A DNA stretch of 64,000 nt from Parcubacteria group bacterium Greene0416_36 (GTDB lineage Bacteria > Patescibacteriota > Patescibacteriia > VMEV01). Both the position numbers and the translations under genes were made by a program. Under the pieces are notes generated by a model that did no database searches, was not told the origin of the DNA, and saw only the letters and a list, made by a program, of their open reading frames with translations. Location of the stretch: NCBI GenBank assembly GCA_007375725.1, contig VMEV01000001.1, positions 15,503-79,502 of the forward strand, written 5' to 3'. Shown here piece by piece: positions 4,229 through 64,000 of this stretch (position 1 is its first letter; the number at the start of each line of letters is the position of its first letter).

Positions 4229-4316
4229 GGTAGGGTGGCCGAGTGGTTGAAGGCGCCGGTCTCGAAAACCGGTATACCGAAAGGTATCATGAGTTCAAAT
4301 CTCATCCCTACCTCCA
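4229..4316 (+). tRNA. tRNA-Ser (anticodon CGA) with a long variable arm
   Basis: Cloverleaf read by eye: acceptor GGTAGGG/CCCTACC, D-arm GCCGAGTGGTTGAAGGC, anticodon loop CTCGAAA, long variable arm, T-arm ATGAGTTCAAATCTCAT, encoded CCA. Confidence 0.7.
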
Positions 4317-4348: not shown

Positions 4349-4420
4349 GAAGTGAAGAGGGATCTCGAAAACCGGTATGCCGAAAGGTATCGTGGGTTCG
4401 AATCCCACTCCCACCTCCCA
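4349..4420 (+). pseudogene. tRNA-like 3'-half remnant (anticodon-like arm, variable arm, T-arm, acceptor 3' strand; no 5' acceptor or D-arm)
   Basis: About 80% identical to the 3' half of the adjacent tRNA-Ser, including GGTTCGAATCC. No complementary 5' acceptor strand lies upstream. Confidence 0.5.
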
Positions 4421-4486
4421 GGTTTTGGGCCAAAGGCGCATTCTCCTTTGGCGAAAAATCTCATCCCTAGCTCCAAAATATAATAT

Positions 4487-5672: not shown

Positions 5673-6818
5673 CTATTTTTTAGGCTCAAAGGCTTCCCCA
5701 CATCCGGCCAACGACAATGTCGGCTTACGATCTAAGGAGTTTATATTAATAACATATTTTTTTCGCAAATACAAATAGTATCCGACAAACCCAATCATAG
5801 CCGCGTTATCCATGCAGAATTTTGGATCGCTGAATAGAATAGGAATTTCCGGATAATCCTTCATTCCGCGGCGCAATTTTCTGCGGAGTTCCAGATTCAC
5901 ACTCACTCCCCCGCCCACCGTGATCATTTTGGGTTTATGGGTTTTGAGTGTTTTCTCGAGCTTGATCCAGAGAATATCAAACACGGCTTCCTGAAGTGAC
6001 GCGCAATAATCGGGAACAATTTTTTTAAAATTCTCTTTGAGTTCGGCCTCCAGTTTTTGAATTTGATACAAACAAGAGGTCTTGAGACCGGAAAAACTAA
6101 AATTCAAATCATCTTTGGTTTTCATTGGTCTCGGCAAATCATAGGCCTTTCGATTGCCTGATTTGGCAAAATGCTCCACCACCGCTCCCCCAGGATAACC
6201 CAGACCCAATAAACGGGCAATTTTATCGAGAGCCTCACCCGCAGCATCATCGAGTGTTCGGCCAAGGATTGTATATTTACCAATATCATCGACCCAGACG
6301 ATTTCCGTGTGACCGCCGGATACGATCAACGACAAAAACGGATATTCCAACCCCGCGTTTTTTGTATAAAAATTCCCCTTTCGATTCTTGATCAATGCTG
6401 AAAAAATATGGCCTTCGATATGATTGACGGCGATAAGCGGCTTATTATATTCAATCGCCAATTCTTTTGCCTTCTTCACCCCAACTTGTAAGGCGGGGGC
6501 AAGGCCCGGGCCGTAGGTGACGGCGATGGCATCAATTAAATGTAGGGGCAGACCTGAGTGTCTGCCCTGCTCCTCACCCGACGATAGGGTCGGGCGCACA
6601 TGCAAGTGCGCCCCTACGAGACCGGATTTTCTAATGGCCAATTCAATGCACGGACCGATATTTTTTTCATGTTCCATCCGCGCCAAATTCGGCACGACGC
6701 CACCCCATTGTTTGTGGATTTCCACTTGAGACGAGACGACGCTCGAAAGCAGGCAGTCATCTTTTAAAATGGCTACCGAGGTGTCGTCGCAGGAAGTGTC
6801 GATGGCGAGGATATACAC
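5673..6818 (-). CDS. tsaD: tRNA N6-adenosine threonylcarbamoyltransferase TsaD (Kae1/YgjD)
   Basis: MYILAIDTSCDDTSVAIL, HIEGHI and VSGGHTEIV motifs. Contains an in-frame insertion of about 24 aa before IDAIAV. Confidence 0.9.
   Translation of the reverse strand: MYILAIDTSCDDTSVAILKDDCLLSSVVSSQVEIHKQWGGVVPNLARMEHEKNIGPCIELAIRKSGLVGAHLHVRPTLSSGEEQGRHSGLPLHLIDAIAVTYGPGLAPALQVGVKKAKELAIEYNKPLIAVNHIEGHIFSALIKNRKGNFYTKNAGLEYPFLSLIVSGGHTEIVWVDDIGKYTILGRTLDDAAGEALDKIARLLGLGYPGGAVVEHFAKSGNRKAYDLPRPMKTKDDLNFSFSGLKTSCLYQIQKLEAELKENFKKIVPDYCASLQEAVFDILWIKLEKTLKTHKPKMITVGGGVSVNLELRRKLRRGMKDYPEIPILFSDPKFCMDNAAMIGFVGYYLYLRKKYVININSLDRKPTLSLAGCGEAFEPKK
6541..6616. repeat. GC-rich double-hairpin palindromic element inserted in-frame in tsaD
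   Basis: gtaggggcagac-ctgagt-gtctgccc ... gggcgcac-atgcaa-gtgcgcccctac. It encodes VGAHLHVRPTLSSGEEQGRHSGLP between the conserved SGL and IDAIAV blocks, where E. coli TsaD has 4 aa. Confidence 0.7.
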
Positions 6819-6819
6819 A

Positions 6820-6905
6820 AATTAAGAATTAAGAATGAAAAATTAAGAATGAATAAAGAAACAAGAACATATATAATTCTTCATTCTTAATTTTTCATTC
6901 TTCAT
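6820..6905. repeat. AT-rich inverted repeat of the aattaagaatgaa family (copy a)
   Basis: aattaagaattaagaatgaaaaattaagaatgaa ... ttcattcttaatttttcattcttcatt. The same motif recurs at 11747, 25775 and 27797. Confidence 0.6.
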
Positions 6906-8007
6906 TGACTTTATATCTAATCCTCCTCTTCCCCTCCCCCACATGTTCCAAAAAGACATGGAGAATAAGGGATTCCTTCAAATACGGCTGAATCACATCC
7001 ATAATACGCTCGGCCCATTCGATGCACACGATATTAGGGGATTTTCCTCCAAAGGCGGATCCGCCTCCGGCGGAGAAAATCGCGGGCAAGTCGAGGATAG
7101 TAATTTCTTCAGGTTTTTCGAGGCGATAGGTGTCGAGATGTTGTAATTGAAAGGGCTTGCCTTCCCAAGAGGCCTCGTATTCATTGCACAAAATAAAGGT
7201 CGGAGATACGACTGACTCTTTTACTCCCAATCTCTTGGCCAAAAATTGAGTAAACGTAGTTTTGCCCGATCCTAATTGCCCATTAAGCAAAATCACAATC
7301 GACTTTTTACCTAGAAAAGGCTTGATTTCATTGAAAATGATTTCTGAGAATGCATTGGTTTGTTCAACACTCTCCGAAATAAAAGTTTGGGCGTCTTCGA
7401 AGAAACGATCGCCTTTTCGAAGTACCGCCAAGTGTTCTTGGGTCGTATCGATGACTGTGGAAGGAGCTCGAGGGGGTAATTCTCCCGCGTCCAGCACCAA
7501 ATCAATCAAATCTCGCTGTTTACCCGACAAATAATCAAAAATATCCGCCACCTTGTAAGGCGTTTTTTGTCCGGAAGAATTGGCCGAAGTTGCTGTAACC
7601 GGTTTTCCGAACACCCGGACAATTTCGGTGATCAGGGGATGGTCGGGAATGCGAATCCCCAAGGTTCCCTGTATTGACTGGACCCCAGGAGCTACTTTAT
7701 TTTTCCCCTTCGAAATCACCGTCACCGGCCCGGGCAAAAAATTATGGTAGATATTCCGTGCCGTCTCATTCATTTCCACATACTCCCCCGCCATTTTCTC
7801 GTCCACAACCGCAACTGAAAAAGGCTTGTCCTGCCGCTTGGTCTTATATTCGAGGAGTTTGGCCACCGCCTCCGGATTTGTCGCGTCCACCCCCGCCCCA
7901 TAGCAAGTCTCAGTCGGATAAATCAAAAGACCGCCGGAAGCCAATGTTTGGAGGGCGTGATTGATTATATTTTCTTGGGAAGTATTTTTTAAATCGAGAA
8001 TTTGCAT
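6895..8007 (-). CDS. Fused L-threonylcarbamoyladenylate synthase TsaC/YrdC (N-terminal) and TsaE/YjeE ATPase (C-terminal)
   Basis: N-terminal half has YrdC motifs (LIYPTETCYGAGVDA, LPGPVTVI, IRIPDHPL). C-terminal half has TsaE motifs (GQLGSGKTTFTQ, SPTF, HLDTYRL). Start set at MQILDLK (8007); the ORF track extends the frame into the upstream repeat. Confidence 0.75.
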   Translation of the reverse strand: MQILDLKNTSQENIINHALQTLASGGLLIYPTETCYGAGVDATNPEAVAKLLEYKTKRQDKPFSVAVVDEKMAGEYVEMNETARNIYHNFLPGPVTVISKGKNKVAPGVQSIQGTLGIRIPDHPLITEIVRVFGKPVTATSANSSGQKTPYKVADIFDYLSGKQRDLIDLVLDAGELPPRAPSTVIDTTQEHLAVLRKGDRFFEDAQTFISESVEQTNAFSEIIFNEIKPFLGKKSIVILLNGQLGSGKTTFTQFLAKRLGVKESVVSPTFILCNEYEASWEGKPFQLQHLDTYRLEKPEEITILDLPAIFSAGGGSAFGGKSPNIVCIEWAERIMDVIQPYLKESLILHVFLEHVGEGKRRIRYKVNEE

Positions 8008-8022
8008 ATCATATAGAATACA

Positions 8023-8108
8023 GCAACAAATCCCCCTTAATCCCCCTTTGACAAGGGGGAAATAGCGCCCTCCTTTGTCAAAGGGAGGGTTGGGGAGGGA
8101 TTTGTTGC
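8023..8108. repeat. GC-rich palindromic repeat element, copy 1
   Basis: aacaaatccccc..cccctttgacaaggggg..ccctcctttgtcaaagggagggttggggagggatttgttg; outer inverted repeat plus two internal hairpins. Confidence 0.8.
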
Positions 8109-9400
8109 TTATCCCTTCTTTTCCTATGAAACGTAATCGCAAATCGATGAGCTTCTTCTCTCATCCTTTCCACCAAAAGAGGGTCGTTTAAAAAAAATAA
8201 TGCCTGATCATTTTTAATCTCCTCCAATCCATACATATCCGTCTTTTTACGCGTGGGACCTTTGGCCACGGAGGCCACGGGGATCTTCTTCCCCGACCTT
8301 TCCACGGCCATCCGCGCCACGGCGAGCTGGGTTTTCCCGCCATCGATCAGGATCACGTCCGGCACGGACCAATCGTCATGTCGGAGACGCCGCTCCAGCA
8401 CTTCTTCGAGAGCCGCCAGATCATCAGATCCTGTCTCAGAACGTAAAATGAATTTCCGATATTCGTTTCGGTCCGGCTTTCCGTCGACGAAAACGACCAT
8501 GGATCCCACGGTATCGTGGCCTGATGTATGCGAAATATCGTAGGTTTCGATGCGGCACCGTTGGAGCGCACCTATGTGTGCGCCCTCATGACCATGACCA
8601 AGGCCCGAACCATCTCCGACAGGGCGGACACGCAGGTCCGCCCCTACGTCATCGGATGATCCCAACAATGCAATATCACGAATATGCCGCAGAGCAAATG
8701 CCTGATTGCGCAGAATCGCCGCGCGTTCAAAATCTTCGGATTTACCCGCCAGAACCATGTCTCTTTCCAATTTCTTGAGTAATTGTCCCTTTTTTCCTTC
8801 CAGCATCATCTGAATTCCCTTTATATTACGCAAATATTGGCTTCGGTCAATCGCCCCGTCATAGGGGCCGGGACACAGGCCAATCTGATAATCCAGACAT
8901 CCTTTCTCGCTTTTCTCAATCCGCTCATGAAAAGGAAAAATCTTTCGGATAATTTTGAGGGCAATGGTCATGTGTTTTCGTGAGGTATACGGACCGTACC
9001 TCCGCAAAATTTGTAAGGGCACAAAATTTTGTGCCCTTACAAATTGGGTCTCTCGCCAAATCAAAACTCGTGGAAATTTTTCCTTGGTAATCACAAAATA
9101 GCAGAAAGATTTATCGTCTTTACCGAGCGAATTATATTTCGGCTTATATTTCTTGATTAAATTCGCCTCGAGAATGAGGGCCTCGAGCACGGTTTCCGTC
9201 TCGACATAATCCACCTTGGCGCTCTGCCCCACCATATTGAAGATCCTCTCCCCCCTCGAGTCGTTCCCTGTGAAATACTGCCCCACCCGAGAACGCAGAT
9301 CCGTGGCTTTCCCAACATACAAAAGCCCGCCTGATTTATCTTTCCATAAATAGACGCCGGGGGTGTGGGGGAAGGTTTTGACACTCTCCATCAAATTCAT
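8078..9400 (-). CDS. uvrC: Excinuclease ABC subunit C, short form (GIY-YIG plus RNase H-like endonuclease region; no C-terminal HhH domain)
   Basis: GVYLWKDKSGGLLYVGKATDLRSRVGQYF GIY-YIG motif and a RIETYDISHTSG block. The C-terminus runs into repeat copy 1. Contains an in-frame insertion of about 30 aa. Confidence 0.75.
   Translation of the reverse strand: MNLMESVKTFPHTPGVYLWKDKSGGLLYVGKATDLRSRVGQYFTGNDSRGERIFNMVGQSAKVDYVETETVLEALILEANLIKKYKPKYNSLGKDDKSFCYFVITKEKFPRVLIWRETQFVRAQNFVPLQILRRYGPYTSRKHMTIALKIIRKIFPFHERIEKSEKGCLDYQIGLCPGPYDGAIDRSQYLRNIKGIQMMLEGKKGQLLKKLERDMVLAGKSEDFERAAILRNQAFALRHIRDIALLGSSDDVGADLRVRPVGDGSGLGHGHEGAHIGALQRCRIETYDISHTSGHDTVGSMVVFVDGKPDRNEYRKFILRSETGSDDLAALEEVLERRLRHDDWSVPDVILIDGGKTQLAVARMAVERSGKKIPVASVAKGPTRKKTDMYGLEEIKNDQALFFLNDPLLVERMREEAHRFAITFHRKRRDKQQIPPQPSL
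8562..8656. repeat. GC-rich double-hairpin palindromic element inserted in-frame in uvrC (same family as the tsaD insert)
   Basis: gagcgcac-ctatgt-gtgcgccc ... gggcggac-acgcag-gtccgcccctac. Encodes DDVGADLRVRPVGDGSGLGHGHEGAHIGALQ between the conserved LLG and RIExxDISH blocks, where E. coli has about 6 aa. Confidence 0.7.
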
Positions 9401-10127: not shown

Positions 10128-11279
10128 TTATCTTGTCAATACCCCCCTCGTCTCCCTCGCACACCTCTCCCACGAAAAATCACGAAGCCGAATCTTGCCC
10201 TTCTCGATCAAATCCCTCTTTAATGCCTCATTTTTTAAAATCCCCGCTATTTTCTCCGCCATATCCTCCACCGAATGCGGATCAAAATAGAGGGCGCCGT
10301 CACGGGCCACTTCCGGAATCGAAGCAATATGAGACGCGACCAGAGGAGTCCCCGCCGTAAACGCCTCCAGAATCGGAATCCCAAACCCTTCATACAATGA
10401 TGGAAACACAAAACAATCAGCACCTTTCATCAGATGAGGTAAGTCGGATTGGGGGACCCAGCCGGGAAACAACAAATCCCTCCCCAACCCTCCCTTTGAC
10501 AAGGGAGGGGGTAGCAGCCTCCCCCTTGTCAAAGGGGGATTGAGGGGGATTTGTTGCTCTATCTCCTCCCACCCCGTCCCCTTCCCTCCCGCCAAAACCA
10601 ATTTATGAGGGATCTGATACTTCTCTTTCAAAATCCGAAACGCGCGAATCAAGCCAACGACATTTTTCTTTTTCTCCAGACGCCCGACATAAAATAAATA
10701 CGGACCCTCAACATATTTTCGGACAATCTCCGACGTTTTATTCCAATCTGTTTTTTTATAAAGCTCCTCATCATATGACTGATACACTACGGAGATTTTG
10801 GACTCCGGAATCCGATAGCGCGCGATCATTTCCTGCCGCGAAAACTCCGAAATCGTGATGATGTGGCGCGCGCGGCGGACAGCCAGTCGCATGGTGAACC
10901 GGTGATAGGCCAGTTCTTTCCAGGAGTACAGTTCTGGAAAAGTCTCAAAACCGATATCGTGGCAGGTGGTGACGGTATTTTGTGGACTGATGATCGGCAA
11001 GGTATGCGCGGGGACAAATAAGACATCGGGAGCATCTGAGAGCATCTCCAGCGACAATCTCCCCTGTGTCCAGAGATATTTCGGCGGCCAATTCAAATAC
11101 TTCACCTTAAAATTCTCCGGCCAAACCGAAAAATCCGAGAGGAGCGGATCTCTCGTATATAACCGATATTGATTCTCGCGGTCCAATCGCGCCAAAGCAC
11201 GAATCAGATGATACGAATACCATTCAGTACCGGTACGTTTGGGTTTATTGGCGCGGGAAGCGTCGATGCCGATTAACAT
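10128..11279 (-). CDS. Family 1 (GT4-type) glycosyltransferase
   Basis: YVGRLEKKKN, LVLAGGKG and ADCFVFPSLYEGFGIPILEA motifs. Start set at MLIGIDAS (11279); the track ORF runs on into upstream repeat copy 3. Confidence 0.75.
   Translation of the reverse strand: MLIGIDASRANKPKRTGTEWYSYHLIRALARLDRENQYRLYTRDPLLSDFSVWPENFKVKYLNWPPKYLWTQGRLSLEMLSDAPDVLFVPAHTLPIISPQNTVTTCHDIGFETFPELYSWKELAYHRFTMRLAVRRARHIITISEFSRQEMIARYRIPESKISVVYQSYDEELYKKTDWNKTSEIVRKYVEGPYLFYVGRLEKKKNVVGLIRAFRILKEKYQIPHKLVLAGGKGTGWEEIEQQIPLNPPLTRGRLLPPPLSKGGLGRDLLFPGWVPQSDLPHLMKGADCFVFPSLYEGFGIPILEAFTAGTPLVASHIASIPEVARDGALYFDPHSVEDMAEKIAGILKNEALKRDLIEKGKIRLRDFSWERCARETRGVLTR
10470..10556. repeat. GC-rich palindromic repeat element, copy 2, lying in-frame (87 bp) inside the glycosyltransferase gene
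   Basis: Near-identical to copies at 11301 and 32514. It translates as QIPLNPPLTRGRLLPPPLSKGGLGRDLL within the GT ORF without a stop. Confidence 0.8.
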
Positions 11280-11300
11280 AATTAAACAACAAACAGCCAA

Positions 11301-11397
11301 CAACAAATCCCTCCCCAACCCTCCCTTTGACAAGGGAGGGGGTAGCAACCTCCCCCTTGTCAAAGGGGGATTGAGGGGGATTTGTTGTTTATTTTTT
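11301..11397. repeat. GC-rich palindromic repeat element, copy 3
   Basis: Same sequence family; lies between the GT start and the hpf stop. Confidence 0.8.
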
Positions 11398-11401
11398 ATT
11401 C

Positions 11402-11746
11402 TTAATTGTTTTTCGCCCTCACCCCTTCCTTCTGATCCTTGGCATGCAGTTTCTCCTTCGCTTTCTTAAGTTCCATTTCCAGTATTTTCTTGACTTCGAC
11501 GACAGCTTCGTCCAGATTCTTCGCCACACTCTCGGCGCGGATCAGATCACCGGCATTGAGATTCACAATCGCGCGAAATACATCACCTTTGTGATGATGA
11601 GTCGTTTTCTCGACTTCCACTCGGCCATCAATGATTCTGGAGTAGAATTTATCGAGATTGCCGATCTTGTCCTCGATCAAAGACTTGATGGCTGGAGTCA
11701 GGTCAAAATTTTTGGCGGAAATATGAAGAGTGATCATAAAAACCAA
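11402..11746 (-). CDS. hpf: Ribosome hibernation promoting factor / RaiA family
   Basis: ISAKNFDLTPAIKSLIEDKIGNLDKFYSRIIDGRVEV matches the S30AE/RaiA pattern. Confidence 0.8.
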   Translation of the reverse strand: MVFMITLHISAKNFDLTPAIKSLIEDKIGNLDKFYSRIIDGRVEVEKTTHHHKGDVFRAIVNLNAGDLIRAESVAKNLDEAVVEVKKILEMELKKAKEKLHAKDQKEGVRAKNN

Positions 11747-11820
11747 TTAAAAATTAAAAATGCAAAATTAAAAATGAATAAAAAAGCTGTTTCATTCTTA
11801 ATTTTTAATTATTAATTTTG
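11747..11820. repeat. AT-rich inverted repeat of the aattaagaatgaa family (copy b)
   Basis: aattaaaaatgaataaaaaagctgtttcattcttaattttt. Confidence 0.5.
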
Positions 11821-11823
11821 AAT

Positions 11824-12495
11824 TTAAAACCCCACCATCCTTATCCTCTCTCTCAGCTGCACCCCGTGCTGGTCGCGGACTTGCTGTTTGACATAGGAAA
11901 TGAGCATAACGGCGTGATTGGCGGTGCCTTTTCCCAAATTCACGAAAAAATTCGCGTCTTCTTCCGGCACCAGAATATCACCCATTTTTTTCCCCCGCAA
12001 ACCGGCTTTGGCCAATAAGTAGGAAGCGGGGATTTTTCCCGATTTACGAAAACCGTCATGTTCTTCCATGCAGTCACGAAGAATATCGTTTTTAAGCGCG
12101 CCCTGTTTGTCATTGGCGAGTTCACACGAATCCGGTTTGAGGACCACATCTTCAAATAAAGGCCCCGCATACCCAGCCAGTCCCGAAAAACGTGAATCAT
12201 CCGGAATTTCTGGCGTAGGATAAAATAGCACCACGGATTTGATCGCTCCATTATTACAGATCACGGGTTCTCCTTGAGGCAGTAAAAAAGAACTGATCTT
12301 CTCCAATTCAAGCTTTCGCACAGCCTCTTCGGCCTCTTGTTTGGATGACATCTTCAAACAATACAAAGCCGTCCCACCTACTTTTAAAGTGGTATACGGG
12401 GCGAGGGGCTCATTGAGGAGTAATTTTTCTTGGAAATTTTGTTGGAGAAAATGAAGGGGGTCCATAAGCATGTCATGGTGAGCCTGTCGAACCAT
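11824..12495 (-). CDS. murB: UDP-N-acetylenolpyruvoylglucosamine reductase (short form)
   Basis: LAPYTTLKVGG motif and dcw-cluster context. Confidence 0.75.
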   Translation of the reverse strand: MVRQAHHDMLMDPLHFLQQNFQEKLLLNEPLAPYTTLKVGGTALYCLKMSSKQEAEEAVRKLELEKISSFLLPQGEPVICNNGAIKSVVLFYPTPEIPDDSRFSGLAGYAGPLFEDVVLKPDSCELANDKQGALKNDILRDCMEEHDGFRKSGKIPASYLLAKAGLRGKKMGDILVPEEDANFFVNLGKGTANHAVMLISYVKQQVRDQHGVQLRERIRMVGF

Positions 12496-12540: not shown

Positions 12541-13920
12541 TTATTTTTTTAAAAACTTCCTCGCCACCCTGCCCGCGTCCCCAGCCCCCATAAACACAAT
12601 CACATCTCCTTTTTGAGTACTTTTCTCTAACCAGGCCTCAACCTCATCAAGAGTGGGCACAAAATAAGCGGTTTTTCCGATTTTAGAAATTTCAGCCACA
12701 ACTGAGGCTCCGGTAATCGTCCCTTTGGCTTCTCGGGCAGAGGCATAAATATCCGTCACCACGGTCACATCCGCGTCCAAAAAGGCTCCTCCGAAACCAG
12801 CGAGCAAGGCTTCGGTTCTCGAAAAGGTATGGGGCTGAAACACGGCTACAATCCGACGTCCGGGATAAAATTCACGGAGCGCGTCTAGAGATGCCTCGAT
12901 TTTCTGCGGATTATGAGCATAGTCATCGATGACTAGCACTCCATTCTTCTCCCCCAATACCTCCAGCCGCCGCTCCACCCCGCCATAAGAAGCCAAGGAA
13001 GACTGAATGGTTCCAAAAGGCACTTGCAAAGCGCGAGCGAGCGCAATAGCGCCGAGAGCATTGTGAACATTGTGACGGCCCGGAACACGAAGCGACATCT
13101 CCGCGGACCCCACGTCAAACAAAATATGCCCTTTTTCTACTCGGACTTTCTCTCCTCGAATCTGCGCCTTGGGTGAAAATCCAAAGGTCACGAGTTTGCA
13201 TTTGGCACGGGAGACGATGGTCTCGACAATCGGATGATCGATTCCAGCGACCAAGATTCCGTCCTTGGGCAAGAGGCCAATGAACTCTTCAAATACTTTT
13301 TGATAATCCGCTGGAGTGGGAAAACAATCGGGATGTTCCCAATCAATATTATTTAGCACTATGGCTCGAGGACGATACTGCAGAAACTTTTTCTGATATT
13401 CATCCGACTCCAGAATAAAATGATCGCCGCCACCCACCAAAGCATTCCCCCCCAGTTGAGGCACATTCGCGCCGATAATGGCCTTGGGATCCAGCCCCGC
13501 GTCCTTGAGAATACAAGCGAGCATAGCGGTGGTCGTGGTTTTGCCATGCGAACCACACACGGAAATACCAAAAGGGCTCGCGTTGAACAAAAGGGCAACA
13601 GCCTGCGGATACGACAATGCCTCAATTTTCTGTTCCATCACCCAGCCTAATTCGGGATTCGTCTCGGGCCGATAGGCCGTGGAATAGATGACACCTTGAC
13701 CTGGTAAGGGCGTATTGCAATACGCCCTTACATGTGCCACCGAAAACCCCTCATGAACTTCTATTCCCGACTTCGCCAATACGGCATCCGTGCCGAATTT
13801 CTCCGCCACGTCCGAACCTGTTACCCGAATTCCCATGGACTGGAGCATTTGAGCCAAAGCCGTCATGCCCACGCCTTTAACCCCGATCATATATACCGAT
13901 TTTATTCGCGAGAAATCCAT
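12541..13920 (-). CDS. murC: UDP-N-acetylmuramate--L-alanine ligase
   Basis: IYMIGVKGVGMTALA and GSHGKTTTTAML motifs. Confidence 0.9.
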   Translation of the reverse strand: MDFSRIKSVYMIGVKGVGMTALAQMLQSMGIRVTGSDVAEKFGTDAVLAKSGIEVHEGFSVAHVRAYCNTPLPGQGVIYSTAYRPETNPELGWVMEQKIEALSYPQAVALLFNASPFGISVCGSHGKTTTTAMLACILKDAGLDPKAIIGANVPQLGGNALVGGGDHFILESDEYQKKFLQYRPRAIVLNNIDWEHPDCFPTPADYQKVFEEFIGLLPKDGILVAGIDHPIVETIVSRAKCKLVTFGFSPKAQIRGEKVRVEKGHILFDVGSAEMSLRVPGRHNVHNALGAIALARALQVPFGTIQSSLASYGGVERRLEVLGEKNGVLVIDDYAHNPQKIEASLDALREFYPGRRIVAVFQPHTFSRTEALLAGFGGAFLDADVTVVTDIYASAREAKGTITGASVVAEISKIGKTAYFVPTLDEVEAWLEKSTQKGDVIVFMGAGDAGRVARKFLKK

Positions 13921-14007
13921 AAATTTCTCTTATTTTAGCATCTATCAAGATAAAAATCCAAATAAAAAAAGAACCGAAAATATTTTCGATTCTTTTTCTA
14001 ATTCCAC

Positions 14008-14286
14008 AAAAAGGGCTTGGTTGACAGGCGGGATTCTTTGACGTATACTAATATAAAGTTGTAAACAAGGTATCTGATCCAACTATAGGATCTACTTGCA
14101 TGGACTTGTTTACAGACTTCATATTTTACTTTGCTTCAAAGAGTCCTATGGCTATAGGATTCTTTTAGTTTTAATTGCAATTACTATAAGTAAAAACAAG
14201 GTTAAAACTAAAATGGTTTGATCCATAACACCTATCACCCCCTTTCCTGAGTTAATGACTCAAGATCCGGATCAGATACGCAAGTA
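14008..14286 (+). ncRNA. Conserved non-coding element copy A; candidate small RNA carrying its own promoter (function unknown)
   Basis: About 85% identical to 16002..16278. Stems are preserved with loop changes and a G-U-compatible substitution (GAGTCCTA..TAGGATTC versus GAATCCTA..TAGGATTC). No conserved ORF. Confidence 0.4.
14021..14049 (+). promoter_or_regulatory. Sigma-70-like promoter TTGACA-N17-TATACT
   Basis: ttgacaggcgggattctttgacgtatact; conserved in copy B at 16015..16043. Confidence 0.5.
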
Positions 14287-14342
14287 TTTCAACTTAACCT
14301 ACCAACACAAATTTGCAAGGTCGTTTTATCCCCAAAAATTCG

Positions 14343-14380
14343 AATAAAAAAAGAACCGAAATTTATTTCGGTCCGCACTT
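14343..14380 (-). terminator. Rho-independent terminator hairpin downstream of the 14399..14737 gene
   Basis: accgaaa-tttat-tttcggt stem followed by a T-run on the minus strand. Confidence 0.5.
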
Positions 14381-14398
14381 TCCAGACTATTAAAAGTT

Positions 14399-14737
14399 TC
14401 ACAACTGGCTCAATAGTTTTTTGAGCTGTTCGACGGCGACGGGATTCTTACCGGCTACTTTTTTAATCGTCGTTCTATAATCAGCCGCCATCAAAATATG
14501 ACACTTTTCTCGATTGGCTTTATAAAATGCAAAAGCCTCATCAATGGCAGCCGGTAAGATATAGTGATATTTTTCCTTAATGGATTGAATGGTACTATGC
14601 GTCATGTGCCAATCCATAACCAAGCGAATAACCTTCATTTTAGAGCCATTCATGATAGGCTCCCCTTTTTCATTTAATGAAATGTATTGATAAGACATGA
14701 TCCATCTCCTGAACAAAAAATTACTCCGTACTTCCAA
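14399..14737 (-). CDS. Small protein, possibly DUF433-like, between murG and murC
   Basis: Weak resemblance of KVIRLVMDW...TIQSIKEKYHYILPAAIDEAFAFY to the DUF433 pattern; low certainty. Confidence 0.35.
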   Translation of the reverse strand: MEVRSNFLFRRWIMSYQYISLNEKGEPIMNGSKMKVIRLVMDWHMTHSTIQSIKEKYHYILPAAIDEAFAFYKANREKCHILMAADYRTTIKKVAGKNPVAVEQLKKLLSQL

Positions 14738-14797
14738 AACACACTAAAAAATAGCATATTGCGGGAAACAAGACAACCCCACCTAATCAAAATCCGT

Positions 14798-15879
14798 CTA
14801 AAAAGCTTTCCTCACCACCTCCGCCATCTTCTCCGCCCCATCTAATGGCATAATTCCCTTTAAATTAGATTTCAGCTTCGCGGATTCGCTGGGGTCGAGC
14901 AATAATCGCACGGCCACAACAAGATCCCTCGGCAATAATCCTTTTTGAGGCAAAACGCGAATGGCGCCTTTTTCTTCGAGGAATCGGGCATTATTTTCTT
15001 GGTGGGAGTCGGGGATGGGGATAATGATCGAGGGTTTGCCGAGGGCGATGATCTCGGAGAGAGAGCCGATGCCAGCGCGGGAGACCACGAGGTCAGCCGA
15101 GGCATAGGCATCGCCCATCGACTCCATCAAAAACTCAAATCGGCGATAATTTTTATCAATGAGAGGATCTTTGGGGACGGGATGATCCAAGTCCTTGCCT
15201 TTGCCGGTGATATGAATCACCTGGGTCCATTGGAGCAAATCGGGAAGGGCTTTATAGACCAGATGATTGATGCCGGAAGCCCCGGTCCCTCCGCCAAAAA
15301 TTAAGGTCACTGGCATTTCGGAATTGAAATTTAAATTTTTAAAGGCGCGATCTTTATTGCCCTCCACTATTTCTTTTCGAATCGGCTGGCCGGTCCAAAT
15401 AGCTTTATTTTTAGGAAAATCTTCGAGCGATTTTTCAAATACCGTTGTGATTTTAGTAGCAAAAGGGGCCATCAGTTTATTGGCGAGTCCAACTAAAATA
15501 TCCTGTTGATGAACGAATATGGGAATGCGAAGAATCCATCCAGCCCAAACTACAGGCACGGCCACAAATCCGCCGGCCGTGAGAATCGCTTTCGGCCGAT
15601 TGAAGAGCAAATACGCAAGACTATACAAAAAAGCCCCGCCAAGGCGAAAAAAATCCGTGATATTTCGCCAGTCCCAATAACGGCGCATTTTCCCGGAGGG
15701 AATCGCCACAAATCGAATCCCCTGCTTTTCCACGACCTCTTTCTCCGGTCCTTCTTTCGTCCCCATCCATACCGGCTCCCACTCCCCCTCGTCGCGAAGT
15801 TCTTGCCATACGGCCAAAAGAGGGACCACGGGCCCTAGGGTTCCTCCGCCGGAGAATAAAATTTTATTTTTCTTGCTCA
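14798..15879 (-). CDS. murG: Undecaprenyldiphospho-muramoylpentapeptide beta-N-acetylglucosaminyltransferase
   Basis: ILFSGGGTLGPVVP and GGTGASGIN motifs; start at MSKKNKILF. Confidence 0.9.
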
Positions 15880-16001
15880 TAAAATTCCCCTTTTCACTCA
15901 CGATAACATGTAAATAAGGTAAACAAAATAGCCCTCCCCGCTTCGCCCTAAGGCGGGCTACGCGGGGCAAGCCCCGGTTGGGAAAGCTATCTTTTTTTTC
16001 A

Positions 16002-16278
16002 TAAAAGGGATTGGTTGACAGAGCGGATTCTTTGACGTATACTCAGATAAAGTTGTAAACAAGATACCCGATATCTTTTGTGTCTACTTGCACGGACTTG
16101 CTTACAGACTTCACCTCACGTTTGTTTAGAGAATCCTACCCTATAGGATTCTTTTTGTTTTAATTGCAATTACTATAAGTAAAAACAAAGTTAAAACTAA
16201 AATAGTTTGATCCATAGTTCTCTGTCTCACCCCCTTTCCGAGTTTAATAACTCCAGACCCGGATCGGATACGCAAGTA
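16002..16278 (+). ncRNA. Conserved non-coding element copy B; candidate small RNA
   Basis: Paralog of 14008..14286 with the same TTGACA-N17-TATACT promoter (16015..16043). Confidence 0.4.
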
Positions 16279-16356
16279 ATTCACATTACATCAAAGAATT
16301 ATATTTTCAATGCTGACTTATCCACCAAAAAAGAGCCACCTGAGGTGGCTCTTTTT

Positions 16357-17493
16357 TTATCGAAACGAGCGTTTTCCACGGCTATCTCCCCCCTGCCTGG
16401 AAATATTAATCAAGATGCCGATCGCGGCCATGGTCACGACGAGAGAAGAGGAACCGTAGCTCACGAGGGGAAGAGGCACACCAGTCAGAGGAATGAGACT
16501 GAGCATGGACGCGATATTGATGAAGGACTGGAAAATAATCCAGAAGGTGATCCCTGCGGCTAGGTATTTGCCGAAATCATCGGGGGCACAGTAGGCGGCT
16601 CGCAGGCCGCGAAAAAAAAGCCAGAGGAGAAGAAAAATAAAACACACCATCACCACAAAACCCATCTCTTCGGCAATCACGGCAAATATCGAATCCCCCA
16701 CCACCTCGGGCAGATACATCTGCTTTTGTATGGAGTTGCCCAGGCCTTTGCCCCAGAGTCCGCCAGATCCGATAGCAACCAAGGCTTGATTGATATGATA
16801 ACTGATGCCCTGCGGATCGGCTTCGGGATTCATGAAAGCCAGAATACGCGCGGCACGGTAAGGCGCGATTTTGACGAGCAGCCAAAATAGGAAGACGCCT
16901 CCAGCACCCAACAAAGCTAGATGCCTCCACGGAGCTCCGGCAATAAAATAAACCATCATCGAAAAGAAGACAATAATAGACATGGTTCCTACGTCCGGCT
17001 GGAGGATGATCAGAAACATCACGAGTCCCAAAGAACTCACGAATGGCACCAGCCCCGCGTGAAAATCCTGAATTTCGCGGGATCCTCTTTGCGCAAAAAA
17101 AGCCGCAATATAAATCAAAAATCCCAGTTTTACGGCCTCAGAAGGCTGAAATGAAAATCCTCCGATATGAATCCAGCGGCTCGCCCCCAACAATTCTGCG
17201 CCTAGCCCGGGCAAAAAAACGGACAAAAGAAGAATGATGGATCCCACAAAAAATGGAAAGGCCCATTTCTTCCACATTTTGTAATCCAGCATGGAAAAAA
17301 GGGTCATCACGATCAGTCCCGGGATCACACCCTGCAAGAGTTGATTTTTGAGATAATAGTAACTGTCTCCAAATTTTTGATATGCGACAGCATTGGATAC
17401 TGAAGAAAGCATGATCACCCCAAAAACAAGCAAAAACAAATATCCGCCCACCAATCCGTAATCAGGAGATTTCATTTTTTGGAAAAAAGACAT
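16357..17493 (-). CDS. ftsW: SEDS-family peptidoglycan glycosyltransferase FtsW/RodA
   Basis: Ten-TM protein ending in PLPLVSYGSSS; dcw context. Confidence 0.9.
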   Translation of the reverse strand: MSFFQKMKSPDYGLVGGYLFLLVFGVIMLSSVSNAVAYQKFGDSYYYLKNQLLQGVIPGLIVMTLFSMLDYKMWKKWAFPFFVGSIILLLSVFLPGLGAELLGASRWIHIGGFSFQPSEAVKLGFLIYIAAFFAQRGSREIQDFHAGLVPFVSSLGLVMFLIILQPDVGTMSIIVFFSMMVYFIAGAPWRHLALLGAGGVFLFWLLVKIAPYRAARILAFMNPEADPQGISYHINQALVAIGSGGLWGKGLGNSIQKQMYLPEVVGDSIFAVIAEEMGFVVMVCFIFLLLWLFFRGLRAAYCAPDDFGKYLAAGITFWIIFQSFINIASMLSLIPLTGVPLPLVSYGSSSLVVTMAAIGILINISRQGGDSRGKRSFR

Positions 17494-17696
17494 AAGGGAA
17501 CAAACCCATCCCCAACCCCTCCCTTAACAAGGAAGGGCGTAAATCGAACCCTTTCGAAAATAAAAAGGGCCAGTGGGGTTTCTATTAGAATACTGGGATA
17601 CGAAAAATTAGGCAAAAAATGAATAAACCATCGCTATTGGGCGATGGCTATTTTGGAAAAGATAGAATTCCAATGCTATTAGTCTACCATTTTCTT

Positions 17697-25772: not shown

Positions 25773-25774
25773 AT

Positions 25775-25860
25775 GACAAAAAAATTAAGAATGAAGAATT
25801 AAGAATGAAGCGGACTGTTGTTCATCTTTAATTCTTCATTCTTCATTCTTAATTATATGA
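25775..25860. repeat. AT-rich inverted repeat of the aattaagaatgaa family (copy c)
   Basis: aattaagaatgaagaattaagaatgaagcggactgttgttcatctttaattcttcattcttcattcttaatt. Confidence 0.5.
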
Positions 25861-27796: not shown

Positions 27797-27841
27797 AAGA
27801 AAAAAATGAAAAATTAAGAATGGAGAATGAAGCAGCAGAAC

Positions 27842-31983: not shown

Positions 31984-32069
31984 AAAATCCCCCTCAGTCC
32001 CCCTTTGACAAGGGGGAGGCTGCTACGCCCCCTCCCTTGTCAAAGGGAGGGTTGGGGAGGAATTTGTTG
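31984..32069. repeat. GC-rich palindromic repeat element, copy 4 (between the dnaK start and the hsp20 stop)
   Basis: aaaatccccctcagtccccctttgacaagggggaggctgctacgccccctcccttgtcaaagggagggttggggaggaatttgttg. Confidence 0.8.
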
Positions 32070-32071
32070 TT

Positions 32072-32506
32072 TTACTTAATATTCTTAACTTTAATCTGTT
32101 TAATTTTCTTCGATTCTTCTTTTTCCTTTGGAATTAAGACTCGGAGGATGCCGTTTTTGGAATATTCAGCTTCGGCTTTATCAAGCAGAAGCCCGGTTGG
32201 CAATGGAATCACTCGAGAAAACTGTCCGGTCTGGATTTCTTTCCTATAATATTTTTCCTCTTCCACCTCGGTCTTGGTCTCAGTTTTACCGGACACCACC
32301 AGACGTCCTTCCTCTACGCTCAGCTCCACATCCTCGCTTTTGACCTTTGGAATGGATAATTCCACAACCAAATTGCCCTTTTCAAGATACATGTCCATTT
32401 TTGGAACAAAAGACATATCAGTCCAGCCCTTTGGAATATCGAGGGCAAATTCTTTGAAAAACTTGTCAAAATCCCCGGACATGGGGATGAGATTGATGAT
32501 GGACAT
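32072..32506 (-). CDS. Hsp20/alpha-crystallin family small heat-shock protein
   Basis: Alpha-crystallin domain (DMYLEKGNLVVELSIPKVKSEDVELSVEEGRLVVSGK, GILRVLIPK). Start set at MSIINLIP. Confidence 0.85.
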   Translation of the reverse strand: MSIINLIPMSGDFDKFFKEFALDIPKGWTDMSFVPKMDMYLEKGNLVVELSIPKVKSEDVELSVEEGRLVVSGKTETKTEVEEEKYYRKEIQTGQFSRVIPLPTGLLLDKAEAEYSKNGILRVLIPKEKEESKKIKQIKVKNIK

Positions 32507-32513
32507 AGAAAAT

Positions 32514-32599
32514 AACAAATCCCCCTCGGTCCCCCTTTGACAAGGGGGAAGCTGCTACCCCCTCCCTTGTCAAAGGGAGGGTTGGGGAGGGATTTGTTG
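32514..32599. repeat. GC-rich palindromic repeat element, copy 5 (between hsp20 and grpE)
   Basis: Same family; near-identical to copies 2 and 3. Confidence 0.8.
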
Positions 32600-32611
32600 C
32601 TAAATTGTTAA

Positions 32612-33906: not shown

Positions 33907-33937
33907 ATTTTTTCTATTTTAATCATGTGAAGCGGAA

Positions 33938-34018
33938 GCAACAAATCCCCCTTAATCCCCCTTTGACAAGGGGGAGACTGCGCCCTCCCTTGTCAAATGG
34001 AGGGTTGGGGAGGGATTT
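33938..34018. repeat. GC-rich palindromic repeat element, copy 6 (between translin-like and hrcA)
   Basis: gcaacaaatcccccttaatccccctttgacaagggggagactgcgccctcccttgtcaaatggagggttggggagggatt. Confidence 0.8.
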
Positions 34019-34022
34019 TTAT

Positions 34023-34712: not shown

Positions 34713-34772
34713 AGTGTCATTGCGAGAATCGGCGTCTTAGCCGAAGCGAAGCAATCTCATGGAAAAATCCTT

Positions 34773-34799
34773 TTAGCACTCACCAAAGACGACTGCTAA
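34773..34799. promoter_or_regulatory. CIRCE operator (HrcA binding site)
   Basis: TTAGCACTC-N9-GACTGCTAA; one mismatch to the TTAGCACTC-N9-GAGTGCTAA consensus; immediately upstream of hrcA. Confidence 0.7.
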
Positions 34800-34895
34800 A
34801 AGCATTATAGGAACACCCAAAAACAATGTCAAATACAAACGCAAAAACGCCCTATATAAAAGCGTTTTTCAATGCAATTGATCCCAAATCTAGAG

Positions 34896-40414: not shown

Positions 40415-40483
40415 AAAATAAGCCGCCCTGTTGTTCCCTCCCTTGTAAAGGGCAGGGTTAGGGAGGGGTTTATTGTTAGAGCC

Positions 40484-52864: not shown

Positions 52865-52919
52865 TAGCAACAAACCCATCCCCGGCCCTCCCCTTAACAA
52901 GGGAGGGTTAGGGAGGGGT

Positions 52920-63388: not shown

Positions 63389-63582
63389 AAAGTGAATTTT
63401 AAGAATAAAAAATCGCTATTATTATAACAATTTTGACTTGAACGTCAACCCCGCTTCGCTGCCATCGCTGCGCTCATGGGCGAGCTACGCGGGGCACGCC
63501 CCACTTCTGGGGAGGGGAAAAAAGAAGAGGTTTTAAGGGTTTTTTATGTAGAAATCGTTAAAAATACGCAACTAAATAGAGT

Positions 63583-63999: not shown

Positions 64000-64000
64000 A

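What the first reader, a model, noticed from the sequence alone, without database searches (positions are those of the whole stretch)
14008..16278. Duplicated roughly 280-bp conserved non-coding element with a consensus sigma-70 promoter inside the murG/murC block: candidate novel small RNA pair
Two copies (14008..14286 and 16002..16278) are about 85% identical and lie 2 kb apart, both between minus-strand cell-wall genes. Each starts with a textbook TTGACA-N17-TATACT promoter on the plus strand, antisense to the surrounding operon. Downstream, the differences between copies fall mostly in loops, while stems are kept. One A-to-G change creates a G-U-compatible pair (GAGTCCTA/TAGGATTC versus GAATCCTA/TAGGATTC). 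This is the pattern expected for a structured RNA rather than a protein gene or neutral DNA. No ORF is conserved between the copies. RNase P, tmRNA and 6S signatures were looked for and not found.
Basis: partly seen in the sequence, partly recalled or inferred. Interest (0 to 1): 0.62.

Follow-up and report, generated by a model that had tools for sequence, protein, structure and literature searches.

The report
Duplicated small-peptide/antisense-RNA module (type I toxin-antitoxin-like)

Summary
The repeat is real. There are two copies, 14009-14296 and 16003-16288, about 83-88% identical, and no others in about 82 kb of the source contig. The plus-strand TTGACA-N17-TATACT promoters are real. 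Each is followed about 90 nt later by an intrinsic terminator, so the predicted plus-strand RNA is about 110 nt, not 250-300 nt.

It encodes the identical 24-aa hydrophobic peptide MDQTILVLTLFLLIVIAIKTKRIL and sits behind a near-perfect Shine-Dalgarno, AAAGGGGGTGA. The ORF differs at 3 of 75 positions, all synonymous, against 24% divergence in the rest of the element (p=5e-5). The SD pairs with a conserved anti-SD at the 3' end of the element (-25 and -24 kcal/mol), with compensatory changes between the copies. No global 280-nt structure is conserved.

There is no match in Rfam, Pfam or NCBIfam. Pattern scans of GTDB species genomes, JGI metagenomes and IMG/VR found nothing. Relatives (MurG at most 50% identical) have tight ftsW-murG-murC junctions without the element.

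Best reading (about 0.6): a new, orphan type I toxin-antitoxin-like module with a 3'-overlapping antisense RNA and long-distance SD sequestration. Transcription, translation and toxicity are untested.

The parts
14291..14318 (-). Copy 1: candidate weak promoter of the peptide mRNA (TTGCAA-N16-TAAGTT). The predicted start is near 14285, where similarity between the copies begins.
   Evidence: Read from the sequence and located. It is in the same register as the copy 2 candidate (alignment). It falls below the consensus-scan threshold, so it is inferred.
14227..14286 (-). Copy 1: 5' UTR with Shine-Dalgarno AAAGGGGGTGA at 14245-14235
   Evidence: The SD is identical in both copies. The linker between SD and AUG is the most variable stretch.
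14152..14226 (-). Copy 1: 24-codon ORF encoding MDQTILVLTLFLLIVIAIKTKRIL, plus stop
   Evidence: The high-identity block 14152-14227 reported by the repeat finder (D1) coincides with the ORF.
14008..14028 (-). Copy 1: anti-SD segment (CCUGUCAACCAAGCCCUUUUU) at the 3' end of the predicted mRNA. It overlaps the -35 box of the plus-strand promoter.
   Evidence: The duplex is -25.1 kcal/mol against -14.9 +/- 3.0 for shuffles (fraction 0.001).
13963..14000 (-). Copy 1: intrinsic terminator after the anti-SD, a bidirectional hairpin. It is a diverged duplicate of the terminator at 14353-14374.
   Evidence: 17-bp stem plus U-run., D5 (13952-13988 against 14334-14370, 86% identical).
14021..14049 (+). 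Copy 1: near-consensus sigma-70 promoter TTGACA-N17-TATACT of the antisense RNA
14056..14170 (+). Copy 1: predicted antisense sRNA of about 110 nt. It has a 5' stem-loop and a terminator hairpin at 14138-14165 followed by UUUUAGUUUU. It overlaps the last roughly 17 nt of the ORF and about 95 nt of the mRNA 3' UTR.
16283..16310 (-). Copy 2: candidate weak promoter of the peptide mRNA (TTGAAA-N16-TAATGT)
   Evidence: inferred
16216..16278 (-). Copy 2: 5' UTR with SD AAAGGGGGTGA at 16237-16227
16141..16215 (-). Copy 2: 24-codon ORF encoding the identical peptide. It has 3 synonymous third-position differences from copy 1.
16003..16023 (-). Copy 2: anti-SD segment (CUCUGUCAACCAAUCCCUUUU)
   Evidence: The duplex is -23.7 kcal/mol (shuffle fraction 0.006).
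15921..15991 (-). Copy 2: G+C-rich branched structure followed by UUUUGUUU. It may be a terminator, and it is not homologous to the copy 1 terminator.
   Evidence: Its core resembles 63466-63502 (D14).
16015..16043 (+). Copy 2: near-consensus sigma-70 promoter TTGACA-N17-TATACT
16050..16160 (+). Copy 2: predicted antisense sRNA of about 110 nt, with a terminator hairpin at 16128-16154 followed by UUUUUGUUUU

Best explanation
Each copy is a self-contained type I toxin-antitoxin-like module.

- **Minus strand:** a weak promoter drives an mRNA of about 320-350 nt that encodes a 24-aa hydrophobic peptide with a cationic C-terminus. The peptide is predicted to insert into the membrane.
- **Intrinsic translational block:** the near-perfect Shine-Dalgarno is paired with an anti-SD sequence at the 3' end of the same mRNA, a 5'-3' long-distance interaction.
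- **Plus strand:** a strong, near-consensus promoter located inside the mRNA's 3' UTR drives a convergent RNA of about 110 nt. This RNA ends at a hairpin that overlaps the ORF's stop codon, so it is fully complementary to the last roughly 17 nt of the ORF and about 95 nt of 3' UTR. Duplex formation would trigger mRNA decay or keep the mRNA translationally inert.
- **Origin:** the two copies are paralogues inserted into an otherwise compact mraY-ftsW-murG-murC cluster.

Shown from sequence: the ORF and its purifying selection, the SD, the promoter and terminator motifs, the SD/anti-SD complementarity, and the absence of the element from relatives.

Inferred: transcription of both strands, translation, toxicity, and the mode of antisense action.
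For: 1. **Conserved ORF.** The peptide is identical in both copies. All 3 nucleotide differences in the ORF are synonymous third-position changes (P about 0.012 for random substitutions). ORF divergence is 3/75 against 51/216 for the rest of the element, with no indels in the ORF (Fisher p=5e-5). The high-identity block found blindly by the repeat finder (14152-14227) coincides with the ORF.
2. **Shine-Dalgarno.** AAAGGGGGTGA lies 8-11 nt upstream of the AUG in both copies. A scan for SD-preceded hydrophobic ORFs of 15-50 aa finds only these two ORFs in the 64-kb window, plus one spurious hit inside murC.
3. **Peptide properties.** Thirteen of 15 residues from T4 to I18 are hydrophobic and the C-terminus is KTKRIL (GRAVY 1.62). 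This meets the operational criteria of Fozo et al. 2010 (PMC2887945) and the 20-60 aa range in T1TAdb (PMC8594479).
4. **Antisense gene.** Each copy has an 11/12 promoter followed by a terminator. Only 5 sites in the window reach 11/12 or better, against 1.2 expected. The other three precede hrcA (with a CIRCE operator), tRNA-Glu and secD, so this promoter class is in real use here. The copy 1 terminator hairpin is favoured on the plus strand through a G-U pair.
5. **SD sequestration.** The SD/anti-SD duplexes are -25.1 and -23.7 kcal/mol, against about -15 +/- 3 for shuffles. They are present in both MFE folds and in the consensus fold. The variable SD-AUG linker and the variable promoter spacer co-vary: GAUAGGUG:CGCCUGUC in copy 1 against GACAGAG:CUCUGUC in copy 2.
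6. **Sizes and arrangement.** The mRNA (150-400 nt), asRNA (60-200 nt) and the 3'-side partial overlap that includes the ORF end all match the TxpA/RatA, BsrG/SR4, SprG/SprF and YonT class described in PMC8594479.
7. **Insulation and insertion.** The modules are repeated and insulated by terminators. They are absent from 80 related murG loci, where the typical (median) ftsW-to-murG gap is roughly 80 nt and the murG-to-murC gap roughly 40-100 nt.
Against: - There are no homologues anywhere. Pattern scans of genome contigs, metagenome contigs and viral contigs found none. No protein resembling the peptide has been called in the database.
- There is no Pfam or NCBIfam toxin family match and no Rfam antitoxin family match.
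- With only two paralogous copies, covariation support rests on a handful of positions.
- No expression or toxicity data are available.
- The mRNA promoters are weak matches and are inferred.
- The SD-AUG spacing in copy 2 is long (14 nt after GGGGG).
- The ORF is on the same strand as murG and murC and directly upstream of each. No convincing separate murG promoter was seen, so a cis-regulatory role is not excluded.
- The low divergence of the ORF could in principle reflect constraint from the RNA hairpin inside it.
Confidence: 0.6

Rival explanations
1. The architecture is the same (small membrane-peptide gene plus cis-antisense RNA), but the peptide is not a toxin. It is a bona fide small membrane protein that acts with the neighbouring cell-envelope machinery (FtsW, MurG), and the antisense RNA simply tunes its level.
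For: Both copies sit inside the dcw cluster, on the coding strand, next to genes for membrane-associated enzymes. The peptide is under purifying selection. All the sequence features fit this reading equally well.
Against: The module is absent at the syntenic positions of 80 relatives, so it is not a conserved dcw component. The two identical copies, each with conserved UTRs, strong SD occlusion, and a strong antisense promoter against a weak sense promoter, are the hallmarks of tightly silenced toxin genes (PMC8594479). The flanking terminator duplication suggests insertion.
Confidence: 0.2
2. The element is a cis-acting 5' leader of murG and murC. An upstream ORF rich in Ile, Leu, Val and Thr, followed by structures and a terminator, would control read-through into the downstream mur gene, as in leader-peptide attenuation.
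For: The ORF is on the same strand as murG (start 15880) and murC (start 13920) and 230-260 nt upstream of each. A terminator lies between the ORF and the gene. Seventeen of the 24 residues are I, L, V or T. No clear separate murG promoter was seen.
Against: The terminators after the two copies are not homologous to each other and lie outside the conserved element, so no conserved terminator/antiterminator alternative exists. Attenuation does not explain the conserved consensus promoter and terminator on the opposite strand, nor the occlusion of the uORF's own SD. A plausible murC promoter (TTGGAT-N18-TGcTAAAAT, 13961-13932) lies after the terminator. Relatives have no such leader.
Confidence: 0.08
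3. One reading: a stand-alone structured non-coding RNA of 250-300 nt on the plus strand, with the minus-strand ORF being fortuitous.
For: The plus-strand promoter is strong. Folding z-scores are low (-4.2 and -2.1 for the first 110 nt). There is one G-U-compatible change in a hairpin.
Against: A plus-strand terminator lies about 90-110 nt downstream of the promoter. There is no enrichment of differences in unpaired positions, and 16-21 pairs break when structure is transferred between the copies. The ORF pattern is codon-aware, with 3 of 3 differences synonymous, no indels and an SD. Some substitutions keep pairing only on the minus strand, such as the U-G pairs in the SD helix and the A-U to G-U changes in the 3' UTR hairpin.
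Confidence: 0.04
4. The element is non-functional duplicated DNA or the remnant of a small mobile element, and the promoter, SD and ORF are coincidental.
For: The element has no homologues. A roughly 37-45-bp terminator segment is duplicated on both sides of copy 1 (D5). The genome is rich in other intergenic repeats.
Against: Divergence is strongly heterogeneous (4% in the ORF against 24% elsewhere, p=5e-5). The -35 and -10 hexamers, the SD and the anti-SD are invariant while the spacers vary. Several independent signals coincide in the canonical arrangement.
Confidence: 0.05

Closest known systems
3'-overlapping type I toxin-antitoxin systems of Gram-positive bacteria (TxpA/RatA, BsrG/SR4, BsrE/SR5, YonT/SR6, SprG/SprF)
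   Same: [quoted passage not shown] The sizes match the class: peptide 20-60 aa, mRNA 150-400 nt, asRNA 60-200 nt (PMC8594479). The antisense promoter is strong and the sense promoter is weak.
   Different: There is no sequence similarity of the peptide or the RNA to these families. At 24 aa the peptide is shorter than TxpA, BsrG or YonT. The host is a Parcubacteria (CPR) organism, not a Firmicute. SD occlusion here is by a 3'-terminal anti-SD, not a nearby upstream one.
hok/sok and AapA1/IsoA1 (type I systems whose mRNA is locked by a 5'-3' long-distance interaction)
   Same: An anti-SD near the mRNA 3' end is predicted to occlude the SD, which makes the full-length mRNA translationally inert (general principle in PMC8594479; here).
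   Different: In those systems the antisense RNA overlaps the 5' part of the mRNA, whereas here it overlaps the 3' part. There is no homology. Activation by 3' processing is only a conjecture here.
ibs/sib (QUAD) and ldr/rdl (LDR) repeats of E. coli
   Same: Those elements were also first noticed as repeated intergenic elements of a few hundred bp, with similarity that extends beyond a very short hydrophobic ORF (18-35 aa). Duplication in or near the same intergenic region was used as a discovery criterion (PMC2887945).
   Different: In those systems the antisense RNA lies fully within the mRNA. They have no sequence relationship to this element. Here the copies are 2 kb apart and separated by murG and an orphan ORF.

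Membership tests
Type I toxin-antitoxin system (class) | Short ORF (about 20-60 aa) encoding a hydrophobic, putatively membrane-spanning peptide, often with a charged C-terminus | tested here: met
   The ORF is 24 aa. Thirteen of 15 residues in the core are hydrophobic, the C-terminus is KTKRIL and GRAVY is 1.62. The criteria are taken from PMC2887945 and PMC8594479.
Type I toxin-antitoxin system (class) | An antisense RNA gene (60-200 nt) that is complementary to the toxin mRNA | tested here: inconclusive
   The sequence signals are present. Each copy has a convergent 11/12 sigma-70 promoter and an intrinsic terminator that define an RNA of about 110 nt overlapping the ORF end. Transcription itself cannot be tested with these tools.
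Type I toxin-antitoxin system (class) | The toxin mRNA carries cis elements that sequester the SD (a local or 5'-3' long-distance anti-SD) | tested here: met
   The SD/anti-SD duplex is -25.1 and -23.7 kcal/mol, with shuffle fractions of 0.001 and 0.006. It is present in both MFE folds and in the consensus fold, with compensatory linker changes. This is a prediction only.
Type I toxin-antitoxin system (class) | Expression of the peptide is toxic, and the antisense RNA neutralises it | not testable with these tools
   This requires expression experiments.
TxpA/RatA, BsrG/SR4, Fst/RNAII, SprA1, Hok/Sok, Ldr/Rdl, Ibs/Sib, TisB/IstR and other described type I families | Sequence or profile similarity of the toxin peptide or the antitoxin RNA to the family | tested here: not met
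   No Pfam or NCBIfam hit for the peptide at E<=10. No Rfam hit to any antitoxin RNA family at E<=10 in 13900-16400.
Rfam non-coding RNA families (6S, RNase P, tmRNA, riboswitches, leaders) | Covariance-model score at or above the gathering threshold | tested here: not met
   Only two tRNAs in the whole window pass. The best sub-threshold hits in the region are terminator look-alikes.
Leader-peptide transcription attenuator | Conserved alternative terminator/antiterminator pairing coupled to translation of the leader ORF | tested here: not met
   The terminators downstream of the two copies are unrelated in sequence and lie outside the conserved block. The leader ORF's own SD is occluded.

The most novel reading that the evidence does not exclude
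The two modules are not merely selfish insertions but have been recruited as regulatory cassettes of cell-wall synthesis in a CPR bacterium. The peptide mRNA would read through into murG, and possibly murC. The strong antisense RNA and the SD-locking structure would then gate expression of essential dcw genes, and the membrane peptide might itself act on FtsW or MurG. If so, this would also be the first type I toxin-antitoxin-type system described in Patescibacteria.
Probability: 0.1. Interest if true: 0.75.

Novelty: new member of a known kind. Interest (0 to 1): 0.45.

Why it matters
Type I toxin-antitoxin systems are hard to find because the toxins are tiny, unannotated and poorly conserved. 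The catalogues read here draw their examples from Gram-negative bacteria (e.g. E. coli, Salmonella, H. pylori) and Gram-positive Firmicutes (PMC8594479, PMC2887945). Two full-text searches found no paper that links type I systems with Patescibacteria or the candidate phyla radiation.

A canonical-looking module in a roughly 1-Mb-class CPR genome would extend the known range of antisense-RNA-controlled membrane toxins to ultra-small symbiotic bacteria. Genome size is my own general knowledge of the group and was not measured here.

Its position, twice inside the cell-division and cell-wall cluster, raises the testable question of whether it affects expression of murG and murC. More practically, it shows that a duplicated intergenic repeat with a promoter should be checked for very short ORFs on the opposite strand before it is called a novel ncRNA.

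Tried and rejected
- **Rfam.** The whole window at gathering threshold, and the region at E<=10, gave only tRNAs and chance hits, mostly to terminator-like hairpins.
- **Protein families.** Pfam and NCBIfam on the 24-aa and 28-aa peptides gave nothing.
- **Protein database.** The 47-aa extended ORF found no candidate sharing words.
- **Pattern scans.** A degenerate 56-bit codon pattern for the peptide, validated on the window, found 0 in genome contigs, 0 in metagenome contigs and 0 in viral contigs. A relaxed N-terminal-half pattern found 5 metagenome hits, all unrelated (an 86-aa protein family and a 19-aa chance ORF), and 0 viral hits.
- **BLAST.** blastn in 'distant' mode against plasmids and phages found no match.
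- **More copies or strain variants.** Every contig carrying the same MurG, RRF or SecF is 100% identical over the element. About 18 kb of extra contig holds no third copy.
- **Synteny in relatives.** In 80 Patescibacteria murG loci, tblastn, nhmmer and blastn found no hit. There is no analogous small ORF in the enlarged gaps.
- **Global structure conservation.** Rejected.
- **Trans pairing.** Pairing of the sRNA 5' part with the mRNA translation-initiation region is no better than shuffles.
- **Second short minus-strand ORF.** MKSVNKSMQVD... at 14122-14048 and 16114-16043 diverges after 11 residues and changes frame, so I judged it non-coding.
- **Orphan ORF 14399-14737.** It has only a sub-threshold DUF433 hit (E=0.011) and no homologues.
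- **Not attempted.** A covariance model built from only two sequences, because nhmmer had already found nothing and two sequences add little structural information.
Full report

Yes, in its core. The repeat finder reports three collinear direct-repeat blocks with start-to-start spacing of 1989-1994 bp. Together they span about 14009-14296 and 16003-16288. MAFFT gives 88% mean column identity. BLAST gives 82.6-83.7% over 287-289 columns including gaps. A 31-nt core occurs exactly twice in the 64-kb window and never in 100 shuffles.

The flanking minus-strand ORFs are as follows:
- murC, 12541-13920
- an orphan 84/112-aa ORF, 14399-14737
- murG, 14798-15880
- ftsW, 16357-17493
- a Cu-oxidase_4 protein and mraY further along

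TTGACA-N17-TATACT is present on the plus strand at 14021-14049 and 16015-16043. Rfam has nothing here, either at gathering threshold over the whole window or at E<=10 over 13900-16400. The weak hits mostly sit on the flanking terminator hairpins.

**2.

Six-frame listing at a 20-aa cut-off shows one ORF that is conserved between the copies, on the minus strand, at 14226-14152 and 16215-16141. Both encode the identical peptide MDQTILVLTLFLLIVIAIKTKRIL.

The two ORFs differ at three nucleotides, all third-position synonymous changes in Thr codons. Only 23% of random single-nucleotide changes in this ORF would be synonymous, so the chance of 3 out of 3 is about 0.012.

Divergence is 3/75 columns in the ORF with no indel. 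It is 51/216 columns, including 8 gap columns, in the rest of the element (Fisher p=5e-5). The longest high-identity block that the repeat finder returned blindly (14152-14227, 96%) coincides with the ORF boundaries.

Both ORFs are preceded by AAAGGGGGTGA. From general knowledge, this is one mismatch from the canonical AAAGGAGGTGA. The linker between this SD and the AUG is the most variable stretch of the whole element.

A simple detector (ATG ORF of 15-50 aa, at least 12 of 14 residues hydrophobic, SD-like motif upstream) finds only these two ORFs in the 64-kb window, plus one spurious hit inside murC. No plus-strand ORF is shared between the copies.

**3. The plus-strand gene**

The promoter is followed, about 90 nt after the predicted start, by a hairpin with a U-tract. 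These are at 14138-14165 followed by TTTTAGTTTT, and at 16128-16154 followed by TTTTTGTTTT. The predicted RNA is therefore about 110 nt (14056-14170 and 16050-16160), not 250-300 nt.

The RNA folds into a 5' stem-loop plus the terminator, with z-scores of -4.2 and -2.1. The copy 1 hairpin is -13.3 kcal/mol on the plus strand and -9.9 on the minus strand, which fits a plus-strand terminator.

Is a sigma-70 consensus meaningful in this organism? Only five sites in the window reach 11/12 or better, against 1.2 expected from block shuffles. The other three precede real genes:
- hrcA, a 12/12 promoter followed by a CIRCE-type inverted repeat TTAGCAGTC-N9-GAGTGCTAA
- tRNA-Glu
- secD

The plus-strand promoters of the element therefore belong to the strongest promoter class visible in this genome.

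**4. The minus-strand RNA**

Similarity between the copies starts at TACTTGCGTATC (14286 and 16278). In the same register just upstream lie weak promoter-like sequences, TTGCAA-N16-TAAGTT at 14318-14291 and TTGAAA-N16-TAATGT at 16310-16283. These are inferred, because they fall below the scan threshold.

Canonical terminators of the upstream genes precede them, at 14374-14353 and at 16332-16356 (for the first; the sequence for the second). The conserved block ends at 14009 and 16003. It is followed in copy 1 by a 17-bp terminator (14000-13963). In copy 2 it is followed by an unrelated G+C-rich branched structure plus UUUUGUUU (15991-15921).

In both single-sequence MFE folds and in the RNAalifold consensus, the SD region pairs with the last 20 nt of the conserved block. 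RNAduplex gives -25.1 and -23.7 kcal/mol, against -14.9 +/- 3.0 and -14.0 +/- 3.0 for shuffled partners (fractions 0.001 and 0.006).

The helix continues into the variable SD-AUG linker, and the partner varies with it:
- copy 1: GAUAGGUG pairs with CGCCUGUC
- copy 2: GACAGAG pairs with CUCUGUC

This gives one G-C to A-U exchange and U-G pairs that would be A-C mismatches on the other strand. The anti-SD overlaps the -35 box of the plus-strand promoter.

In the partition function, the SD of copy 1 is about 1% unpaired in the full-length RNA and 36-42% unpaired when the 3' end is removed. The effect is not seen in copy 2 (24% against 11-26%).

**5. No conserved global fold**

I folded one copy and asked how its pairs fare in the other copy. 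This shows no enrichment of differences in unpaired positions (20.6% of paired columns against 21.6% of unpaired columns), and 16-21 pairs are broken, on either strand. The claim that differences fall mostly in loops therefore does not hold for the element as a whole.

What is conserved is a set of local features: the promoter hexamers, the sRNA 5' stem, the terminator hairpin, the SD, the ORF and the anti-SD. There is no extra trans complementarity between the sRNA 5' part and the translation-initiation region beyond chance.

**6. Where it comes from and whether relatives have it**

The window is part of an 88.6-kb metagenomic contig (ena:ERZ27284378:k139_284924). The same proteins are named in NCBI as from 'Parcubacteria group bacterium Gr01-1014_18'. 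Every other contig carrying the same MurG, RRF or SecF is 100% identical over the element, and about 18 kb of additional contig holds no third copy.

The nearest MurG in a 5.8-billion-protein collection is only 50% identical, so there are no close relatives to compare with.

A degenerate codon pattern for the peptide allowed synonymous and conservative changes. It carries about 56 bits and was validated on the window. It found nothing in 185,579 GTDB species genomes, in JGI metagenomes or in IMG/VR. A relaxed N-terminal-half pattern found only unrelated sequences. blastn against plasmids and phages found nothing.

I fetched eighty Patescibacteria murG loci, including Falkowbacteria, Buchananbacteria and Komeilibacteria, all 49% identical or less. 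They keep the order mraY-ftsW-murG-murC-murB. The typical (median) ftsW-to-murG gap is roughly 80 nt and the murG-to-murC gap roughly 40-100 nt. In this window the gaps are 477 and 878 nt.

None of these loci contains the element by tblastn, nhmmer or blastn. None has an analogous SD-preceded hydrophobic mini-ORF in an enlarged gap. The element, and the orphan ORF next to copy 1, are therefore lineage-specific insertions. A roughly 37-45-bp terminator segment is duplicated on both sides of copy 1 (13952-13988 against 14334-14370, 86%, D5), which is consistent with an insertion or duplication event.

**7. Interpretation**

The parts add up to the canonical anatomy of a type I toxin-antitoxin locus as summarised in the T1TAdb paper (PMC8594479). 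That anatomy is:
- an mRNA of 150-400 nt encoding a 20-60-aa peptide
- an antisense RNA of 60-200 nt
- an SD occluded by an anti-SD, either nearby or near the 3' end through a 5'-3' long-distance interaction
- terminal stem-loops

The arrangement here has the asRNA on the 3' side, partially overlapping the mRNA and the end of the ORF. [quoted passage not shown] The 3'-terminal anti-SD is the principle known from hok and AapA1.

The peptide meets the operational criteria of Fozo et al. 2010: at least 10 hydrophobic residues in a 15-aa stretch, a charged C-terminus, and repeated loci whose similarity extends beyond the ORF (PMC2887945).

I therefore consider a type I toxin-antitoxin-like module the best explanation (about 0.6). 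Membership of any described family fails on sequence, so this would be a new family of a known kind.

The toxin label is inferred. A non-toxic small membrane protein under antisense control is the main rival (about 0.2). A leader or attenuator role for murG and murC is possible but poorly supported (about 0.08). The two downstream terminators are unrelated to each other, and this reading does not explain the opposite-strand gene. The stand-alone 250-300-nt ncRNA reading (about 0.04) and neutral duplicated DNA (about 0.05) are unlikely.

**8. Novelty and interest**

Full-text searches found no paper that combines type I toxin-antitoxin terms with Patescibacteria or candidate phyla radiation, and none that contains the peptide sequence.

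If it is confirmed, this is a new orphan family of a well-known class in a phylum where the class has not been reported. It is inserted twice in the cell-wall gene cluster. That is moderately interesting (0.45). The architecture is textbook and the evidence is purely computational, resting on two paralogous copies.

The more unusual possibility is that the cassettes gate murG and murC expression. This is not excluded, because no convincing separate murG promoter was seen, but nothing positively supports it.

Noticed in passing
window 8022-8110, 10468-10556, 11299-11387, 17499-17537, 31985-32072, 32514-32602, 33937-34025, 40433-40478, 52869-52928: A family of G+C-rich palindromic intergenic repeats of about 40-90 nt, for example AACAACAAATCCCTCCCC...TTTGACAAGGG...GGGGGATTTGTTG. 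There are at least 9 copies in the window, often between convergent or tandem genes. They look like REP/MITE-type elements or terminators (D1, D3, D4, D6, D7).
   Followed up: no
window 44385-44560 and 44565-44745: A tandem duplication of a non-coding unit of about 180 nt downstream of tRNA-Glu. It has conserved blocks (GAGCTGTAAACTTTAT, and the inverted repeat GCCTATCACA...TGTGACTAGGC) and no shared ORF. There is no Rfam match at E<=1 apart from one chance snoRNA hit. This may be another repeated RNA or regulatory element.
   Followed up: partly
window 4229-4316 and 4353-4421: tRNA-Ser(CGA) is followed 40 nt later by an 86%-identical copy of only its 3' two-thirds. The anticodon stem is disrupted, and neither ARAGORN nor Rfam calls it. 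This is the kind of partial tRNA duplication left at integration sites of mobile elements (D11, 77).
   Followed up: partly
window 34804-34832 (-) and 34770-34800 (-): A perfect 12/12 sigma-70 promoter (TTGACA-N17-TATAAT) is followed by a CIRCE-type operator (TTAGCAGTC-N9-GAGTGCTAA) in front of an hrcA-like gene (34712-34023). This shows that classical HrcA/CIRCE heat-shock control and consensus promoters exist in this Parcubacteria genome.
   Followed up: partly
window 14399-14737 (-): An orphan 84/112-aa ORF is inserted between murG and copy 1 of the element. It has no homologue in the protein collection apart from itself, and only a sub-threshold DUF433 match (E=0.011). It has its own terminator at 14374-14353.
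   Followed up: partly
window 13952-13988 vs 14334-14370: The terminator hairpin and its A/T-rich tail are duplicated (86% identical) on both sides of copy 1 of the element. This suggests that the element was inserted, or the segment duplicated, at the terminator of the upstream ORF (D5, D13).
   Followed up: partly
window 15939-15975 vs 63466-63502: A G+C-rich motif (GGGGC.TGCCCCGCGTAGC.CGCC...) is shared between the region upstream of murG and the region just upstream of the secD promoter (81% identical). Its function is unknown (D14).
   Followed up: no
window 6817-6906, 11742-11831, 25773-25847, 27802-27834: A/T-rich repeats built from AATTAAGAATGAA-like units form long hairpins between genes. 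They are probably bidirectional terminators (D2 and D5).
   Followed up: no
L006 1348-7756 (source contig just beyond window position 64000; the last gene reaches into window 63583-64000): A cluster of defence-type genes lies next to secDF: an N6_N4 DNA methyltransferase, a SLFN/AlbA_2-HATPase protein, and a ResIII/DEAD helicase with a restriction-endonuclease domain.
   Followed up: no
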